From a virus, in IMG/VR virus record IMGVR_UViG_3300016472_000940, positions 1-64,000 of that record: a stretch of 64,000 nucleotides of DNA, one strand, 5' to 3'. Below the pieces are notes generated by a model that was not told the origin of the DNA, did no database searches, and was given only the letters and a program-made list of their open reading frames with translations. Each line of letters begins with the position of its first letter. The first letter of the stretch is position 1. Shown in pieces: positions 16,798 through 58,993 of the stretch. The translations under genes and the position numbers were made by a program.

Positions 16798-17152
16798 AAA
16801 ATTTTGTAGCTTGCTCTCCTTTTTTATGAAGGCCGAACATACTATATCTGGTTTGTTGGCCTACTTCGCACCACCGCTTGGCTTTAGATCTCCAGCTAAG
16901 AACTTTAACCTTATTTTCAGGGTTAGAGGTCAAGTTATATTCCTGAGAATGATTATCAGAATAGTGTCCACAGAAGCCACCGGGGTGAAAATCTTTGGGT
17001 TTACGCGTACATTCAGCATTAAGCTCGCGAATTTTAATACGTCGGGGGCTGATAACCTCGATTACTTCCCATGCATCACGATCAGTGTAATGAAACTCTG
17101 TTACATGCTGCCCGACGAAAGGTTTTGTTGCTGGCTCATCGACTGTCTTCAT
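16781..17152 (-). CDS. Conserved phage protein (TDR.A.EV...YDYNF)
   Basis: Motif; TTGCAT-16-CATAAT promoter. Confidence 0.75.
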   Translation of the reverse strand: MKTVDEPATKPFVGQHVTEFHYTDRDAWEVIEVISPRRIKIRELNAECTRKPKDFHPGGFCGHYSDNHSQEYNLTSNPENKVKVLSWRSKAKRWCEVGQQTRYSMFGLHKKGEQATKFYDYNF

Positions 17153-17178
17153 ATTATTATTATGAATGAATATTGTAA

Positions 17179-17829
17179 TTATGCAACATTATTTTCAATA
17201 ACTTTATCGTTATAAAGACTTCTATAAGTTCTGAACTGGTTAATCCATTCATCACGATGGGCGAAAAATATTTGATTTTCACCGGTTTGACAGCTAATCA
17301 GAATAGTAATATCTTGAATAGGAATACCTGTTCTATCCTCGTACATATAACTATATGCACTAGCTTGCATAAAATAATCCCATATATTTTCCTGCTTCTT
17401 AGGTTTTGAGCTAGTTTTAAAATCAATAATAGATATACATCTATCAAATTCTGCAACGCAATCTACTTGTCCTGCTACTTTAAGCTTATCACAATATAAA
17501 TGTTGCTCCATACATTGAATATTTTTTATTCTCTTTAAGATTGGTTTAAATTGATCGAACATTCCACCAATATTATCATTAATTTCTGACCCACCGCTTA
17601 AATAATTTTCACATAAAGTATGAAACTGGGTACCTCTTTTTGCAGCAAAATTCTTAATTCTATCAGCTTCTTCGTCTCCTATCCATTTTCTCCATTTCGC
17701 CAGTTCTTTCTTTTTCCACTCAGAAAGAATAGTTGTTACTGAAGGATATTTGTTACCTTCAGGGGTAACATAAAATCTCTCGCCTGTTTCCCTAGTTACT
17801 CTATGTAACTTAGGTAGTTCAATGTTCAT
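17179..17829 (-). CDS. PD-(D/E)XK (Cas4-like) phage exonuclease
   Basis: R.Y.TP.G..YPSVTTIL, RGT.FH..CE.YL, AG.VDC, IIDFKTS, YF.Q..AY motifs. Confidence 0.9.
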   Translation of the reverse strand: MNIELPKLHRVTRETGERFYVTPEGNKYPSVTTILSEWKKKELAKWRKWIGDEEADRIKNFAAKRGTQFHTLCENYLSGGSEINDNIGGMFDQFKPILKRIKNIQCMEQHLYCDKLKVAGQVDCVAEFDRCISIIDFKTSSKPKKQENIWDYFMQASAYSYMYEDRTGIPIQDITILISCQTGENQIFFAHRDEWINQFRTYRSLYNDKVIENNVA

Positions 17830-17877
17830 ACATATAGTATGGCAGAATTTAGAATAAAGTCAAGAAAAAATAGAAAT

Positions 17878-18227
17878 ACATTTCATCTGCCCTATCAATT
17901 ACACTGGATTCGAATTTTAATTGCTGTAACTTACCAGCTAAGTTAAGTGTAATTAGCGTACGTAACTGCGTCTATACGACGCTTGCTTTAAGATAGGTAA
18001 TACTAGTCTAAGGCTTCGTTCATATGATTGAACTTATAATTTAATATGACTTCTAGTGATTCTTAATCACGGTAGACTTACATCTCTTCCCGAATGCTAC
18101 CAATCATATACCTTGTCATATATAGATGTATCCATCTATACTCGCCTGTGGGTCACGGCGTTGGACTATTCAGCGTGCCTTCGAGGTCCCAACCTCTACT
18201 TGCTACAGATAAAATGTCAATGAACTT
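17878..18227 (-). ncRNA. Candidate large structured non-coding RNA (~350 nt), family unassigned
   Basis: No ORF of 60 aa or more; own promoter TTGCAT-16-TATAAT (18234-18261); boxA-like AGTTCATTGACAT; 12-bp closing helix with a G-U pair on the minus strand; about 10 further complementary segment pairs. Confidence 0.7.
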
Positions 18228-18294
18228 ATTATTATTATATGTGATCCTATAGAAGATGCAACTAGTTTTTATCTTTTTTTTTATTTTTTTGTCG

Positions 18295-18368
18295 CGCACC
18301 TGGCAGGACTCGAACCTGCTACCAACGGATTAGAAATCCGTTGCTCTATCCAGATGAGCTACAGGTGC
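18295..18368 (-). tRNA. tRNA-Arg(UCU)
   Basis: Cloverleaf GCACCTG/CAGGTGC, anticodon arm ACGGA-TTTCTAA-TCCGT, T loop TTCGAGT. Confidence 0.95.
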
Positions 18369-18378
18369 ACTAAATACT

Positions 18379-18451
18379 CTGCCGCGCTAGGGCTCGAACC
18401 TAGAACTGCCTGATCCAAAGTCAGGTGATCTACCAATTGATCTACACGGCA
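18379..18451 (-). tRNA. tRNA-Gln(UUG)
   Basis: TGCCGTG/CGCGGCA, CCTGA-CTTTGGA-TCAGG, TTCGAGC. Confidence 0.95.
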
Positions 18452-18453
18452 AA

Positions 18454-18528
18454 TGGAGCCAGAGATCGGATTTGAACCGATAACCCCCTCATTACAAATG
18501 AGGCGCACTACCGTTGTGCTACTCTGGC
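18454..18528 (-). tRNA. tRNA-Thr(UGU) with encoded CCA
   Basis: GCCAGAG/CTCTGGC, CCTCA-TTTGTAA-TGAGG, TTCAAAT. Confidence 0.95.
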
Positions 18529-18582
18529 GTTTCAAGAATATATAGAATAGCGTATCGTCATTACAATATCCAGATTTAAATA

Positions 18583-18590
18583 TATAAATA
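18583..18590 (+). promoter_or_regulatory. T4-type late promoter TATAAATA (representative; also 24426, 28868, 34182, 38842, 61478 on plus and 8174, 22489, 24388, 29708, 30776 on minus)
   Basis: Exact T4 gp55 late consensus just upstream of structural or late genes. Confidence 0.85.
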
Positions 18591-18594
18591 ATGT

Positions 18595-19281
18595 ATGCAT
18601 CAAGATAATCATCTTATATTTGAAGCGTATAGTAAGCAACTGCTTAAAGAATATAACCCTCATCAAATTAATTCAATGTTTAATAATATGACTAATAGTT
18701 TGGCTAGTAATGCAAACAATTTGCTTAATAATCCTAATTTGGTGCCTGCGTTGCAAGCTGTCTATGGCCATAGACAGCAGCTGAATCAAGGTCAACAATC
18801 GATTAGCTCTCCAGATGAATCTGAAGTATTTAGACAATATGCTACGGCATTATCTGGACCTGAATTAGCTGATCCAAGTCGTCCAGAAAATAATTTAAAC
18901 CGGCCTCATAATAAAGCCATGATGGATTTATTTAAATATGCTCAGTCTGTAGGTATTCAACCAGCGCAATTAGCACAAATTGTAAGACCAAGCATGTCGC
19001 AGGCAATTCAGCAATCAGGTATAATGTCACAAATGCATGGTATGAACAAAGATCAAATTATGCAACAAGTTGAAAACGATCCAAAGTTTTTGAAAATTTT
19101 ACAAAATGTATTTCAACAAACACAACAAAAATTACAACAACAATATGGACAGCGACCGGCACAAACATCTTCACAACAGTATGGTCAACAACCACAGAAT
19201 GTATATAATAATTACAGCTGGACACAGGGGTTGGCTGATCTTATGCGTGCTGCTTATCCAAACGGGATACCTACAGAGTAA
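18595..19281 (+). CDS. Gln-rich late protein, putative internal head protein
   Basis: Late promoter; N-terminus MHQDNHLIFEAY shared with a paralogous leader family. Confidence 0.75.
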   Translation: MHQDNHLIFEAYSKQLLKEYNPHQINSMFNNMTNSLASNANNLLNNPNLVPALQAVYGHRQQLNQGQQSISSPDESEVFRQYATALSGPELADPSRPENNLNRPHNKAMMDLFKYAQSVGIQPAQLAQIVRPSMSQAIQQSGIMSQMHGMNKDQIMQQVENDPKFLKILQNVFQQTQQKLQQQYGQRPAQTSSQQYGQQPQNVYNNYSWTQGLADLMRAAYPNGIPTE

Positions 19282-19283
19282 TA

Positions 19284-20201
19284 GTGAATAATGACACATA
19301 CAAGATAGCTGAACTATACAATGAGCAAGTTTCTTCCTATGTAGATAGCTACATACAGAATAAAAGTAAGACAACAACGCCTTATAATTATACCCCCTTG
19401 CCTGTGTCATCAGCACCTCCTGTAAACGCCATGCCCCGTACATCAACAACCTCTGTTCCCCGGGCCTCAATAAATAGTCTGTCACCCTCTGCATCTCCAG
19501 CTTATAGATTACTGGCTGGCATAGACATGTACCCAGGCAAACAATATAATTTTTGGGAAATGGCCCGTAAATGGTATCAAAACAACACACAATTTTCCGA
19601 TAAAGAAATTGAAAACATGCTATCTAAAAAACAATTAGCTAGTCAGCAAGCTGGTTTTAATAATAGAACAGCCACTCTAGGCCATCCGCAAAACTGGAAG
19701 GGTGGTTCTGTAAGCGTGCCTGGAGGTACAACAAGAGCTTATTATGACCTTGACAATAATACTGTGTATATAAATCCCGCATTAAATAATCTAAATTTAA
19801 TTTGGCGCTCTATTTTACATGAATTGTTACACTCTGTACAGCCTGAGGATATGCACAAAGCGGGTTATTCATCTAATACACTTGCGGGTGATTATGTAAG
19901 CTATACTGCTGAGCCTGTGGAGATGGATACGGCGTTAGGAGAATTAAACAGAGTAGTAGCTGTTAAATTTAATAAATTGATAGTACCGGGAAATGAGAAA
20001 GAGGCAGAAAAATTTATACGATGGTTCACAGATATGAAAAATACAGATTACCCAAGAATGCATGATAAAGCTAGCGCTATGCTTTTAAGAGCCATACAGC
20101 GAGGAAAAACTGCTGAAGAGCAGAATACAATTATAAAAGAGTTGGCCAGAAGAATGGTATTTTTAACAAGTAATCAAAAACCAATTAAAAATATAGCCTG
20201 A
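19284..20201 (+). CDS. Putative zincin metallopeptidase-like internal protein
   Basis: N-terminus MNNDTYKIAELY; RAYYD....VYIN, ILHELLH (HExxH), Y..EP.E.D. Confidence 0.7.
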   Translation: MNNDTYKIAELYNEQVSSYVDSYIQNKSKTTTPYNYTPLPVSSAPPVNAMPRTSTTSVPRASINSLSPSASPAYRLLAGIDMYPGKQYNFWEMARKWYQNNTQFSDKEIENMLSKKQLASQQAGFNNRTATLGHPQNWKGGSVSVPGGTTRAYYDLDNNTVYINPALNNLNLIWRSILHELLHSVQPEDMHKAGYSSNTLAGDYVSYTAEPVEMDTALGELNRVVAVKFNKLIVPGNEKEAEKFIRWFTDMKNTDYPRMHDKASAMLLRAIQRGKTAEEQNTIIKELARRMVFLTSNQKPIKNIA

Positions 20202-20293
20202 TACCTCCGGTTGGATTCGAACCAACGTTTTGCGCTAATCTGGCGCCGTGCACGGGTATAAGCCGTGTGTCTTAACCGCTAGACGACGGAGGC
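20202..20293 (-). tRNA. tRNA-Ile(UAU) with long variable arm
   Basis: GCCTCCG/CGGAGGT, CACGG-CTTATAC-CCGTG, variable arm GCGC-CAGATTA-GCGC, GTTGG-TTCGAAT-CCAAC. Confidence 0.85.
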
Positions 20294-20302
20294 AATGGCC
20301 TC

Positions 20303-58789: not shown

Positions 58790-58993
58790 TTAATAATACT
58801 TCCACTTTTGTGCAGATATCTGCTTTGATAACTTCCGTCTAACCGAAGGTTTCATATAGTTACGTAATAGCCTTAATTCATCTATTATACCACACCTCTT
58901 TACTGCATTTGAGAATTGTTTTAATTTTTTGTCGAAATATAGCTTGTTTGAGGCTTTTTTTGTATCAAGCTTTACTTCACAGTTAATTTGCAT
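58790..58993 (-). CDS. rpsU: Ribosomal protein bS21 homologue (start MQINCEV)
   Basis: F.K.LK.F...VK..GI.DELR..R.Y.KPS.RRK matches the bS21 core; late-like GTAAATA upstream. Confidence 0.75.
   Translation of the reverse strand: MQINCEVKLDTKKASNKLYFDKKLKQFSNAVKRCGIIDELRLLRNYMKPSVRRKLSKQISAQKWKYY

What the first reader, a model, noticed from the sequence alone, without database searches (positions are those of the whole stretch)
17878..18227. Unassigned ~350-nt multi-helix RNA with its own promoter and boxA-like element, next to the tRNAs
Seen: no ORF of 60 aa or more; promoter TTGCAT-16-TATAAT predicts +1 near 18227; AGTTCATTGACAT follows at once. The ends pair over 12 bp (18206-17 with 17878-89), with a G-U pair only on the minus strand. 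Further complementary pairs: 17891-96/17992-97, 17897-905/17946-54, 17927-33/17939-45, 17968-72/17978-82, 18005-10/18073-78, 18018-22/18029-33, 18056-61/18065-70, 18121-28/18133-40, 18160-66/18186-93. Two more pairs cross these (18022-30/18101-09 and 18044-50/18115-21), implying pseudoknots or a switch. A U-rich tract follows. Established: boxA antitermination marks stable-RNA transcripts, and large RNAs such as GOLLD and ROOL sit beside phage tRNAs. I see no tmRNA, RNase P or group I/II intron signature. Inference: a possibly new class of large phage RNA (ribozyme, scaffold, or decoy against host nucleases).
Basis: partly seen in the sequence, partly recalled or inferred. Interest (0 to 1): 0.85.

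Follow-up and report, generated by a model that had tools for sequence, protein, structure and literature searches.

The report
New self-pairing ornate phage RNA
The gene-free gap next to the tRNAs of this uncultured T4-like lake phage holds a real gene for an intricately folded, roughly 350-base non-coding RNA that is in no catalogue and carries two self-complementary words, which suggests that copies of it clip together.

Summary
The finding is real. Window 17877-18226 (minus strand) is a stand-alone gene for a ~350-nt structured non-coding RNA. I found 46 full-length copies (35 distinct) in lake metagenome and IMG/VR contigs of related uncultured T4-like phages. On 32 sequences, 98.5% of cells in 77 proposed pairs are standard pairs, against 30-37% with slid partners. 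Compensatory changes occur in 45 of 77 pairs. Two tertiary pairings are included. No Rfam 15 family matches at E<=10, in the window or in 11 homologous loci. There is no conserved reading frame. A promoter sits at a fixed distance in 33 of 35 copies.

Two unpaired words stay self-complementary while their letters change. Kretsch et al. (2025) used this signature for copy-to-copy kissing in OLE and GOLLD. My best reading is a new family of ornate phage RNA that self-associates. Its function is unknown. The boxA idea is only a resemblance.

This scan found the same kind of RNA before on another genome (e1-6116813), with the same reading. RNA-library contigs from three studies cover only this gene within the 2 kb laid, apart from tRNA-Arg in one run.

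The parts
18234..18261 (-). Promoter: TTGCAT (18256-18261), 16-nt spacer, TATAAT (18234-18239), preceded by an A-rich tract
   Evidence: Read. A TTG-type -35, a 16-17 nt spacer and a TAT(A/T)AT-type -10 lie 6-7 nt before AGTTC in 33 of 35 distinct homologues. One is cut by its contig end and one has CATAAT. The consensus scanner did not list it, because the -35 matches only 3 of 6.
17877..18226 (-). The RNA gene, about 350 nt. RNA position i = window 18227 - i.
   Evidence: nhmmer finds full-length homologues at E 1e-100 to 1e-22. The structure is counted. The gene is single-copy in the 121-kb record. One RNA-library contig carries 25 non-templated A after 17877.
18215..18226 (-).
   Evidence: Nine of 12 positions are invariant in 32 sequences, with no covarying partner. 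It matches 5 of 9 positions of E. coli rrn boxA. The motif is not enriched in the window: 3 matches against 3.24 expected.
18205..18217 (-). P1, 5' strand; pairs with 17878-17890
   Evidence: Nine pairs, 5 with compensatory changes: UUUU/AAAA-type in one clade and GCAA/UUGC in the other.
17878..17890 (-). P1, 3' strand, followed directly by the U-rich tract
18172..18204 (-). P2 (18201-04/18172-75) enclosing hairpin P3 (18192-96/18183-87, loop UUGGGA)
   Evidence: helices 2 and 3: 2 of 4 and 3 of 4 pairs with compensatory changes.
18164..18168 (-). Long-range helix, 5' strand UAGUC; pairs with GACUA at 18004-18008
   Evidence: helix 5: 100% of cells paired, 3 of 5 pairs with compensatory changes.
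18004..18008 (-). Long-range helix, 3' strand GACUA
   Evidence: helix 5.
18143..18160 (-). Hairpin P5 (CGCCG/CGGCG, nearly invariant). Its loop 18149-18152 pairs with the P3 loop 18188-18191 (loop-loop contact).
   Evidence: helices 6 and 4. In two sequences GGG becomes GAG while CCC becomes CUC. This is one event only, so support for the loop-loop contact is thin.
18120..18141 (-). Hairpin P6
   Evidence: helix 7: 8 of 8 pairs with compensatory changes.
18044..18109 (-). P7 (18102-09/18044-51) closing a variable branched insert. A 3-bp helix (18111-13/18011-13) closes the whole middle domain.
   Evidence: helix 8: 4 of 7 pairs compensatory. One search shows covariation of the 3-bp helix (GC/AU/GU types). 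Fold.
18018..18033 (-). Optional hairpin GUUCA/UGAAC
   Evidence: Present in 18 of 32 aligned sequences and deleted in 14.
17891..17997 (-). 3' domain: P8 (17992-97/17891-96), P9 (17985-87/17955-57) with a variable hairpin (17968-82), and P10 (17946-54/17897-905)
   Evidence: helices 10, 11 and 12: 5 of 6, 2 of 3 and 5 of 9 pairs compensatory.
17923..17944 (-). H-type pseudoknot: AACUUA (17939-44) with UAAGUU (17928-33), interleaved with GCUG/CAGC (17935-38/17923-26)
   Evidence: helices 13 and 14: 3 of 6 and 3 of 4 pairs compensatory.
17959..17964 (-). Self-complementary word 1, UACGUA, in an internal loop of P9
   Evidence: Variants are UACGUA 20, UUAUAA 5, UAAUUA 1 and UAUAUA 3, so 29 of 35 are palindromic. 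The inner four letters are palindromic in 35 of 35, with 4 variants. Adjacent central letters covary (CG/AU/UA).
17908..17915 (-). Self-complementary word 2, AUUCGAAU, in the loop between the pseudoknot and P10
   Evidence: The 8-mer is AUUCGAAU in 22 and UAUCGAUA in 8 of 35. The 6-mer is palindromic in 34 of 35 as aligned. The 35th, L059, carries UAUCGAUA displaced by a 2-nt insertion.
17861..17877 (-). U-rich tract after P1; likely end of the transcript
   Evidence: a U-rich run follows P1 in all 35. No classical terminator hairpin was found on this strand.
17834..17863 (-). Separate promoter-like site for the downstream exonuclease gene (TTGACT-16-CATACT)
17179..17829 (-). Neighbour: PD-(D/E)XK exonuclease gene. 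It is a syntenic marker, not part of the RNA.
   Evidence: PF12705, phrog_298 exonuclease, synteny.
18294..18528 (-). Neighbour: tRNA-Thr, tRNA-Gln and tRNA-Arg on the same strand, ending 67 nt before the RNA

Best explanation
Window 17877-18226 (minus strand) is an independent gene for a roughly 350-nt non-coding RNA of a family that is in no catalogue.

SHOWN
- The sequence and a 14-helix architecture are conserved in related uncultured T4-like lake phages.
- The architecture has a 5'/3' closing helix, a long-range helix, an H-type pseudoknot and a loop-loop contact.
- A sigma-70-type promoter sits at a fixed distance upstream, and a U-run follows the closing helix.
- There is no conserved reading frame.

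INFERRED
- The RNA is made early by host RNA polymerase and ends at the closing helix. That helix shields both ends.
- It then works as a folded particle, not as a message or a leader.
- Two exposed self-complementary words change letters between phages but stay palindromic. They are UACGUA and its variants, and AUUCGAAU/UAUCGAUA. They most likely pair with the same words of a second copy (symmetric kissing).
- The RNA would therefore act as a dimer or higher homo-oligomer, in the manner shown for OLE, ROOL and GOLLD.

NOT KNOWN
- What the assembly does. My guess, marked as such, is a scaffold or sequestering particle that acts on the host or phage translation/tRNA machinery.
For: HOMOLOGUES. 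nhmmer finds the RNA in 39 of the 59 metagenome loci fetched with the neighbouring exonuclease, and in 0 of the 10 distant IMG/VR loci. All 13 IMG/VR loci found with a core pattern hold it: 12 full-length and one cut by its contig end. In all there are 46 full-length copies, 35 distinct.

STRUCTURE. RNAalifold predicts 67 pairs, 40 of them with compensatory changes. My 77-pair structure with two tertiary helices gives 98.5% of cells paired. The figure is 30.0-36.5% when partners are slid by 1-3 columns. Compensatory changes occur in 45 pairs, against 5-9 in the slid controls. None of 500 shuffles reaches the observed value on four of five measures.

STRAND. The G-U pairs fit the minus strand only.

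NOT KNOWN TO RFAM. No family matches at E<=10.

NOT CODING. Antisense open stretches fall in three different frames over the same conserved bases. Variability shows no 3-base period: 0.207, 0.208 and 0.192 by phase.

PROMOTER. It is conserved in 33 of 35 copies.

PALINDROMES. Of 300 six-column windows, only two are palindromic in at least 80% of sequences with at least two variants. They are RNA positions 263-268 and 313-318. The next best window reaches 29%. At 263-268 the adjacent central letters switch CG/AU/UA. Both words are predicted to be more open than average: mean unpaired probability 0.58 and 0.70, against 0.44 overall.

PRECEDENT. Kretsch et al. 2025 (PMC12286853, passages read) used this argument for OLE L9.3 and GOLLD L21a. 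They state that pairing of adjacent nucleotides within one chain is stereochemically precluded.

EXPRESSION. In 4 of 4 RNA-library runs laid (3 studies), contigs cover 17877-18207. They cover nothing else in 17000-19000 except tRNA-Arg in one run.
Against: - No physical evidence of self-association exists.
- The AU-only variants of word 1 give very weak isolated duplexes, -0.4 to -1.0 kcal/mol against -4.3 for UACGUA.
- Six of 35 sequences have AACGUA, so the outer pair of word 1 is lost there.
- The centre of word 2 (UCGA) never varies. Its covariation at the two outer pairs would also fit a tiny 2-bp hairpin with a UCGA loop.
- The 35 sequences come from related phages, so independent changes are few: about three or four at word 1 and one or two at word 2.
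- The expression data are assembled contigs of relatives at 85% likeness or more. They cannot give level, strand or true ends. Flanking genes of relatives may simply be too diverged to be laid.
- The closing helix plus U-run is not a classical terminator.
- tRNAs lie nearby in only 13 of 32 related loci scanned.
Confidence: 0.55

Rival explanations
1. It is a real structured RNA that works as a monomer, either as a ribozyme or as a binding platform or decoy for a host or phage protein. The two palindromes are then incidental, or they are small intramolecular features.
For: The covariation proves a fold, not a quaternary state. Long invariant single-stranded stretches exist: the 5' leader, the run around UAGUCCAACGCC, and GUAUUAC. 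These would suit a catalytic core or a protein site. The invariant centre of word 2 fits a UCGA mini-hairpin. The AU-only variants of word 1 pair weakly.
Against: Adjacent-letter covariation at RNA positions 264-267 cannot be intramolecular: it is palindromic in 35 of 35 sequences, with 4 variants. Only these two windows out of 300 behave this way. No known ribozyme family matches. No protein gene is tied to the RNA in every locus.
Confidence: 0.3
2. It is a cis-acting leader (riboswitch-like or attenuator) of the exonuclease gene just downstream.
For: The exonuclease gene starts about 50-110 nt after the RNA in most loci.
Against: Most loci were fetched with that exonuclease, so the synteny is biased. 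In L040 the exonuclease lies upstream and another gene follows the RNA. In L023, L028, L032, L033, L060 and L066 the exonuclease starts about 1-1.9 kb after the RNA. In L028, L032 and L033 another conserved gene lies between. L072, L073 and L076 have no exonuclease within 2.5 kb. The RNA ends in a closing helix plus U-run, and the exonuclease has its own promoter-like site. RNA-library contigs stop at 17877 and none covers the exonuclease (weak).
Confidence: 0.05
3. The element is chiefly an antitermination (boxA/nut-like) site. It would load Nus factors onto RNA polymerase for downstream transcription.
For: A conserved, unpaired, promoter-proximal word, AGUUC(N)UUGA, resembles boxA. Five of 9 positions in the window match UGCUCUUUA, and 6 of 9 in the AGUUCUUUG form. 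From recall only, boxA of some Gram-positive bacteria is closer.
Against: A boxA does not need 340 nt of conserved, covarying structure behind it. The word occurs once in the window and is not enriched. It is not found ahead of either tRNA cluster. The host and its own boxA are unknown.
Confidence: 0.04
4. It is a very divergent member of a known large RNA class: tmRNA, RNase P RNA, a group I intron, GOLLD or ROOL.
For: The ends are paired, as in tmRNA and RNase P. The pair UAGUC/GACUA recalls the P7 strands of group I introns (recalled, not tested). Distant relatives of this phage carry a permuted tmRNA near the same exonuclease gene.
Against: None of these families matches at E<=10, in the window or in 11 homologues. 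ARAGORN finds no tmRNA. There is no tRNA-like end, no tag frame and no exon context. The RNA has its own promoter and U-run. The loci with tmRNA show no nhmmer similarity to it.
Confidence: 0.03
5. The region encodes a small protein, on either strand.
For: Stop-free stretches of 42-93 aa exist on the opposite strand in all 35 sequences.
Against: They use three different frames over the same conserved bases. Insertions of 1, 2 and 3 nt occur at the same site within them. Variability has no codon period. The pattern of change is base-pair compensation.
Confidence: 0.01

Closest known systems
GOLLD, ROOL and OLE: large ornate RNAs that form RNA-only homo-oligomers (Kretsch et al., Nature 2025, PMC12286853)
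   Same: It is phage-encoded and here lies beside a tRNA cluster; the paper says ROOL and GOLLD are 'often near tRNA islands'. It has many helices and pseudoknots and no known protein partner or function. It shows palindromic words whose adjacent letters covary, which the paper uses as evidence for symmetric kissing between copies (OLE L9.3, GOLLD L21a).
   Different: There is no sequence or structure match to their Rfam models. It is about 350 nt, whereas the paper says many GOLLD members exceed 800 nt. OLE is about 600 nt (abstract of PMC12054373 in the listing); a ROOL length near 580 nt is recalled only. Its host range is limited so far to uncultured T4-like lake phages. Self-association is inferred here, not observed.
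T4 species 1 and species 2 RNAs (rnaC, rnaD)
   Same: They are stable RNAs of unknown function in a T4-type phage, on the same strand and directly after tRNA-Arg at the end of the tRNA cluster. In T4 they lie at 70908-71171, right after tRNA-Arg at 71173-71247. Here the RNA starts 67 nt after tRNA-Arg.
   Different: There is no detectable similarity: nhmmer with all filters off at E<=100 finds nothing, and blastn against 50,697 phage records finds nothing. The T4 RNAs are 139 and 119 nt, and no promoter of their own is annotated there. That they are cut from the tRNA precursor is recalled only.
manA RNA motif of T4-like cyanophages
   Same: It is a small structured RNA of T4-like phages, now reported to form RNA-only cages. 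I saw only the abstract and outline of bioRxiv 10.64898/2026.07.01.735769.
   Different: No Rfam manA match appears here. The phage association of manA is recalled, not read.
rrn/lambda boxA antitermination signal
   Same: Both are short, conserved, unpaired, promoter-proximal words rich in U.
   Different: Only 5-6 of 9 letters match E. coli rrn boxA. No boxB or boxC is seen, and binding is untested.
Anonymous candidate structured RNAs mined from IMG/VR (Fremin et al. 2023, PMC10690425)
   Same: That survey screened intergenic regions of IMG/VR 3.0 and reports 8,495 novel candidates (passages read). This family occurs in IMG/VR, so it may be among them.
   Different: The main text names nothing like it: the words exonuclease and T4-like occur 0 times.

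Membership tests
GOLLD / ROOL / OLE (ornate self-assembling RNAs) | Match to the family's Rfam covariance model | tested here: not met
   There is no hit at gathering score. There is no hit at E<=10 in the window or in 11 homologous loci.
GOLLD / ROOL / OLE (ornate self-assembling RNAs) | Encoded by phages or prophages, often near tRNA islands (ROOL, GOLLD) | tested here: met
   The window is a T4-like phage record. The RNA starts 67 nt after three tRNAs. tRNAs lie nearby in 13 of 32 related loci.
GOLLD / ROOL / OLE (ornate self-assembling RNAs) | Complex, covariation-supported fold with pseudoknots | tested here: met
   Fourteen helices, including two tertiary ones. Compensatory changes occur in 45 of 77 pairs.
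GOLLD / ROOL / OLE (ornate self-assembling RNAs) | Palindromic loop words whose adjacent letters covary (symmetric kissing signature) | tested here: met
   RNA positions 264-267 read ACGU, UAUA, AAUU or AUAU in 35 of 35 sequences. Positions 313-318 read UUCGAA or AUCGAU in 34 of 35.
GOLLD / ROOL / OLE (ornate self-assembling RNAs) | Homo-oligomer seen physically (cryo-EM, mass photometry) | not testable with these tools
   No RNA 3D or complex tool is on hand.
tmRNA | tRNA-like acceptor/T-arm end and a tag reading frame; ARAGORN or Rfam hit | tested here: not met
   ARAGORN finds six tRNAs and no tmRNA in the window or in the 121-kb record. No Rfam tmRNA model hits the region.
RNase P RNA | Rfam RNase P models (conserved core regions) | tested here: not met
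   No hit at E<=10.
Group I intron | Rfam Intron_gpI model; interrupted host gene with exons | tested here: not met
   No hit at E<=10. The element has its own conserved promoter and U-run and no flanking exons.
boxA (Nus-dependent antitermination signal) | Sequence close to the boxA consensus, single-stranded, promoter-proximal | tested here: inconclusive
   Five of 9 positions (window) or 6 of 9 (AGUUCUUUG form) match UGCUCUUUA. The word is unpaired and conserved. The host's boxA is unknown.
boxA (Nus-dependent antitermination signal) | Binding of NusB-NusE and read-through of terminators | not testable with these tools
   Needs biochemistry.
T4 rnaC / rnaD stable RNAs | Position directly after tRNA-Arg at the end of the tRNA cluster | tested here: met
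   (T4 annotation) compared.
T4 rnaC / rnaD stable RNAs | Sequence similarity | tested here: not met
   nhmmer --max finds nothing at E<=100. blastn against the phage collection finds nothing.
Polynucleobacter-1 motif (RF01718; a lead from earlier finding e1-6043847) | Match to the Rfam model | tested here: not met
   It is not among the matches at E<=10.
Cis-regulatory leader of the exonuclease gene | Always directly upstream of, and co-transcribed with, the regulated gene | tested here: not met
   Exceptions are L040 (exonuclease upstream), L023, L028, L032, L033, L060 and L066 (exonuclease about 1-1.9 kb further on) and L072, L073 and L076 (none within 2.5 kb). The exonuclease has its own promoter-like site.

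The most novel reading that the evidence does not exclude
A 350-nt RNA of T4-like lake phages builds a closed RNA-only assembly (dimer, ring or cage) through two symmetric kissing words. It is the functional counterpart of the 50-year-old orphan 'species 1 and 2' RNAs that sit at the same place behind tRNA-Arg in T4. It acts on the translation apparatus, for example by holding tRNAs or the phage's own bS21 protein. That would put ornate self-assembling RNAs into the best-studied phage lineage, in a size that is easy to handle.
Probability: 0.2. Interest if true: 0.85.

Novelty: new variant of a known kind. Interest (0 to 1): 0.72.

Why it matters
Only a handful of natural RNAs are known to assemble with themselves, and what they do is unknown. 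A much smaller, unrelated RNA would give an easier object for structure work and genetics. It comes from T4-like phages, has the same sequence signature of copy-to-copy pairing, and has signs of expression in lake metatranscriptomes. It also suggests that ornate self-pairing RNAs near phage tRNA genes are a recurring invention and not two or three oddities. Finally, the region is an annotation trap, because stop-free antisense frames of 42-93 aa could be called as genes.

Tried and rejected
- Rfam at gathering score and at E<=10, on the window and on 11 homologous loci: nothing on the RNA.
- blastn (word 11) of the region against 50,697 phage records: no match.
- An exact 54-base pattern in IMG/VR: no match.
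- A core pattern in 185,579 species genomes gave three Clostridia MAG contigs. None shows nhmmer similarity at E<=1, so I treat them as chance.
The 107 new loci (L088-L194) yielded no member at E<=0.01.
- A pattern from the 3' domain gave 23 stretches. The 20 new loci yielded no member at E<=1.
- Divergent tmRNA: I considered this because distant relatives L004-L008 carry a permuted tmRNA. I rejected it.
- Group I-like core (UAGUC/GACUA): this is recalled, and no model supports it.
- Leader pairing with the optional hairpin's 3' strand: not consistent across sequences when I read.
- Isolated covarying pairs 162/312 and 147/312: single pairs in a poorly aligned region, so I treat them as phylogenetic noise.
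- An obligate partner gene: none was found.
- T4 rnaC/rnaD similarity: none.
- Single-sequence folding does not tell the strands apart.
- Parts of 17000-19000 without contig cover in the RNA runs carry little weight by themselves.
- Small-share DNA and RNA runs that I did not lay (X12-X14, X19, X20) are not used as evidence.
- Literature searches turned up no description of this RNA. Supplements, including the candidate tables of PMC10690425, were closed, so I cannot say it is absent from those lists.
- PMC3177189 and PMC2800207 did not yield a boxA sequence with my search terms.
Full report
WHAT IS THERE. On the minus strand of the window, tRNA-Thr, tRNA-Gln and tRNA-Arg (18528-18294) are followed by an A-rich stretch. 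Next come TTGCAT (18261-18256), a 16-nt spacer and TATAAT (18239-18234). Seven bases further on is AGTTCATTGACA at 18226. About 350 bases later a U-rich run (17877-17861) leads into a second promoter-like site (TTGACT-16-CATACT). The PD-(D/E)XK exonuclease gene follows at 17829-17179 (PF12705; phrog_298). No ORF of 60 aa or more lies in the gap. The window is the first 64 kb of a 121-kb IMG/VR virus record. Its portal protein is 31-34% identical to those of T4-like cyanophages. Tail-fibre, gp15-like and other T4-type proteins are present. It is therefore an uncultured, distant T4-like myovirus.

IS IT MORE THAN CHANCE? Folding the single sequence gives z = -3.0 on the minus strand, but also -2.9 on the plus strand, so this alone decides nothing. 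I therefore aligned 28 exonuclease proteins and used the alignment to fetch 59 metagenome loci. nhmmer with the 361-nt region found the element in 39 of these 59 loci (E from 4.5e-100 to 6e-06). It found the element in none of the 10 distant IMG/VR loci. A degenerate pattern from the most conserved stretch found 13 IMG/VR loci, all of which hold the RNA; 12 are full-length and one is cut by its contig end. In all there are 46 full-length copies, 35 of them distinct. The 121-kb record holds one copy.

STRUCTURE. On 32 sequences (alignment A2, mean column identity 71%), RNAalifold predicts 67 pairs, 40 with compensatory changes. I added one pair, an H-type pseudoknot stem and a loop-loop contact, and counted 77 pairs in 14 helices.
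- 98.5% of cells form standard pairs. The figure is 30.0-36.5% when the 3' partners are slid by 1-3 columns.
- 45 pairs carry compensatory changes, against 5-9 in the slid controls.
- None of 500 shuffles reaches the observed value on four of five measures. The fifth, further pair types, is not significant (119 of 500).

The many G-U pairs would be A-C mismatches on the other strand, so the RNA is read from the minus strand.

The layout is as follows (RNA position i = window 18227 - i):
- An unpaired 5' leader (1-12).
- A closing helix P1 (10-22 with 337-349).
- P2/P3 hairpin (23-55).
- A long-range helix, UAGUC 59-63 with GACUA 219-223. It encloses hairpins P5 and P6 and a middle domain. The middle domain is a 3-bp helix and P7 with a variable insert, plus a hairpin present in only 18 of 32 sequences.
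- A 3' domain: P8, P9 with a variable hairpin, and P10 with the pseudoknot.

The P3 loop (UGGG) can pair with the P5 loop (CCCA). Two sequences change GGG to GAG and CCC to CUC together. That is one event, so support is thin.

- The end pairing and four further helices are supported by covariation.
- Three more exist in the window but lie in variable insertions.
- Two nested helices are not conserved: 18005-10/18073-78 and 18160-66/18186-93.
- Neither 'crossing' helix is conserved. One strand of each (18102-09 and 18044-51) forms the conserved nested helix P7 with the other.
- Pseudoknots are real, but they lie elsewhere.

NOT A KNOWN FAMILY, NOT CODING, NOT A LEADER. Rfam 15 gives only the six tRNAs at gathering score. 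It gives nothing on the RNA at E<=10, in the window or in 11 homologous loci. ARAGORN finds no tmRNA. Stop-free stretches of 42-93 aa on the opposite strand use three different frames over the same conserved bases. Variability has no 3-base period. The promoter is conserved 6-7 nt before AGTTC in 33 of 35 sequences, and a U-run follows P1 in all 35.

The RNA usually precedes the exonuclease gene, but most loci were fetched with that gene, so the synteny is biased. In L040 the exonuclease lies upstream. In L023, L028, L032, L033, L060 and L066 it starts about 1-1.9 kb after the RNA. L072, L073 and L076 have none within 2.5 kb. A cis-leader is therefore unlikely.

THE boxA IDEA. The leader AGUUC(A/U/G)UUGA(C/U)A is conserved and has no covarying partner. 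E. coli rrn boxA is UGCUCUUUA (PMC2724277, passages read). The window matches 5 of 9 letters and the AGUUCUUUG form 6 of 9. The word is not enriched in the window (3 matches with up to one mismatch, 3.24 expected), and it is absent before the tRNA clusters. It remains a resemblance. The leader could equally be a protein site or a tertiary contact.

THE SELF-COMPLEMENTARY WORDS. I scanned all six-column windows of the 35-sequence alignment. Only 2 of 300 are palindromic in at least 80% of sequences with at least two variants, and the next best window reaches 29%.
- Word 1 (RNA 263-268, window 17959-17964) is UACGUA in 20, UUAUAA in 5, UAAUUA in 1 and UAUAUA in 3. The remaining 6 have AACGUA. 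Its inner four letters are palindromic in 35 of 35, with four variants, so adjacent central letters covary (CG, AU, UA).
- Word 2 (RNA 312-319, window 17908-17915) is AUUCGAAU in 22 and UAUCGAUA in 8. Its 6-mer is palindromic in 34 of 35 as aligned. The 35th carries the word displaced by an insertion.

Both lie in predicted loops and are predicted to be more open than average: 0.58 and 0.70 unpaired, against 0.44 overall.

Kretsch et al. (Nature 2025, PMC12286853; passages read) report that GOLLD, ROOL and OLE form RNA-only homo-oligomers. They say ROOL and GOLLD are encoded in phages and prophages, 'often near tRNA islands'. They also state that covariance at immediately adjacent nucleotides of palindromic loops supports intermolecular pairs, because such pairing within one chain is stereochemically precluded. 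The same logic applies to word 1.

My own rough estimate, which is inference: among AU-only hexamers 8 of 64 are palindromes. Three independent AU-only variants that are all palindromic would then arise by chance about twice in a thousand.

Points against:
- The AU-only variants pair weakly as isolated duplexes (-0.4 to -1.0 kcal/mol).
- The centre of word 2 never varies, so a 2-bp mini-hairpin cannot be excluded for it.
- The number of independent changes is small.

EXPRESSION. The stretch or parts of it occur in freshwater metagenome runs from several studies. I laid four RNA-library runs from three studies on 17000-19000 at 85% likeness. All contigs fall within 17877-18207, apart from tRNA-Arg in one run. 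None lies on either flanking gene. One contig carries 25 non-templated A right after 17877, one base past P1. These are assembled contigs, mostly of relatives. They show presence in RNA libraries, not level, strand or true ends, so I count them as a weak hint of a discrete RNA.

COMPARISON WITH WHAT IS KNOWN. In workings, the closest are GOLLD, ROOL and OLE. The RNA is not a member of any of them, because the model match was tested and failed, and at about 350 nt it is much smaller. By position, the closest is T4 itself. There the stable RNAs of unknown function, rnaD and rnaC, directly follow tRNA-Arg at the end of the tRNA cluster. There is no sequence similarity to them. A 2026 preprint reports that the manA motif forms a 60-mer cage; I saw only its abstract and outline. 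A survey of IMG/VR intergenic regions reports 8,495 anonymous candidates (PMC10690425, passages read). This family may be among them, but I could not see the supplements.

EARLIER FINDINGS OF THIS SCAN. After I had reached the palindrome reading, a look-up by sequence showed that the scan had flagged a similar ~370-nt RNA beside tRNA-Ile2 in another genome. A follow-up agent read it the same way (e1-6116813). That is not independent evidence, but it means this is a second sighting of the family. Several other uncatalogued structured RNAs of T4-like lake phages were also noted. One lead from there, Polynucleobacter-1, does not match here.

VERDICT. I rate it about 0.97 likely that this is a real, separately transcribed, highly structured non-coding RNA of a family absent from Rfam. 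The reading that it pairs with copies of itself through two palindromic words is the best-supported mechanism, at about 0.5-0.55, and it is untested. Its biological role is unknown.

Noticed in passing
window 20200-20294 (-): tRNA-Ile (anticodon UAU) of 95 nt with a long extra arm, as drawn by ARAGORN. The same 93-95-nt tRNA-Ile recurs in related loci L019, L023, L036, L047 and L048. A long variable arm is unusual for tRNA-Ile (recalled).
   Followed up: partly
window 58790-58993 (-): A phage-encoded ribosomal protein bS21 homologue (PF01165, 30.5 bits, cut-off 27) lies next to a gp15-like tail gene. OLE RNA is proposed to bind bS21/RpsU (PMC12286853). A link to the RNA here is pure speculation.
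   Followed up: partly
L004 4009-4325, L005, L006, L007, L008 4211-4530: Distant relatives (exonuclease 43% identical) carry an alphaproteobacterial-type permuted tmRNA with tag ANNNLAMAA, a few hundred bases after the exonuclease gene. It shows no similarity to the RNA studied here.
   Followed up: partly
loci L028, L031-L034, L037, L042, L047, L048, L055, L059-L061, L064-L066, L070, L073, L076, just after the RNA's U-run: In the second clade a conserved small hairpin-like word follows the RNA at once: GCG..AACCGUGACGC. In many of these loci GCGTATATAGCAATATAT follows it. Its role is unknown.
   Followed up: no
L032, L033, L034, L055, L060, L061, L064, L065: In these loci the exonuclease gene is 382-433 aa, against about 215 aa elsewhere, which suggests a fusion with a second domain.
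   Followed up: no
window 18056-18223 (+): A 55-aa antisense ORF lies over the conserved 5' half of the RNA. Homologues have stop-free stretches of 42-93 aa there, in three different frames. It is an annotation trap, not a gene.
   Followed up: yes
window 18262-18280 (-) and the same place in 33 homologues: An A-rich tract followed by CTAG directly precedes the -35 box (AAAAAACTAGTTGCAT-type). It is conserved across the family and could be an UP-like element.
   Followed up: no
window 18595-20201 (+): Two plus-strand genes (228 and 305 aa) sit between the two minus-strand tRNA clusters. Neither has a Pfam or PHROG match.
   Followed up: no
window 17877 (RNA-library run X15): One RNA-library contig ends with 25 non-templated A after 17877, one base past the closing helix. 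It could be a bacterial poly(A) tail on a stable RNA end or a library artefact.
   Followed up: no
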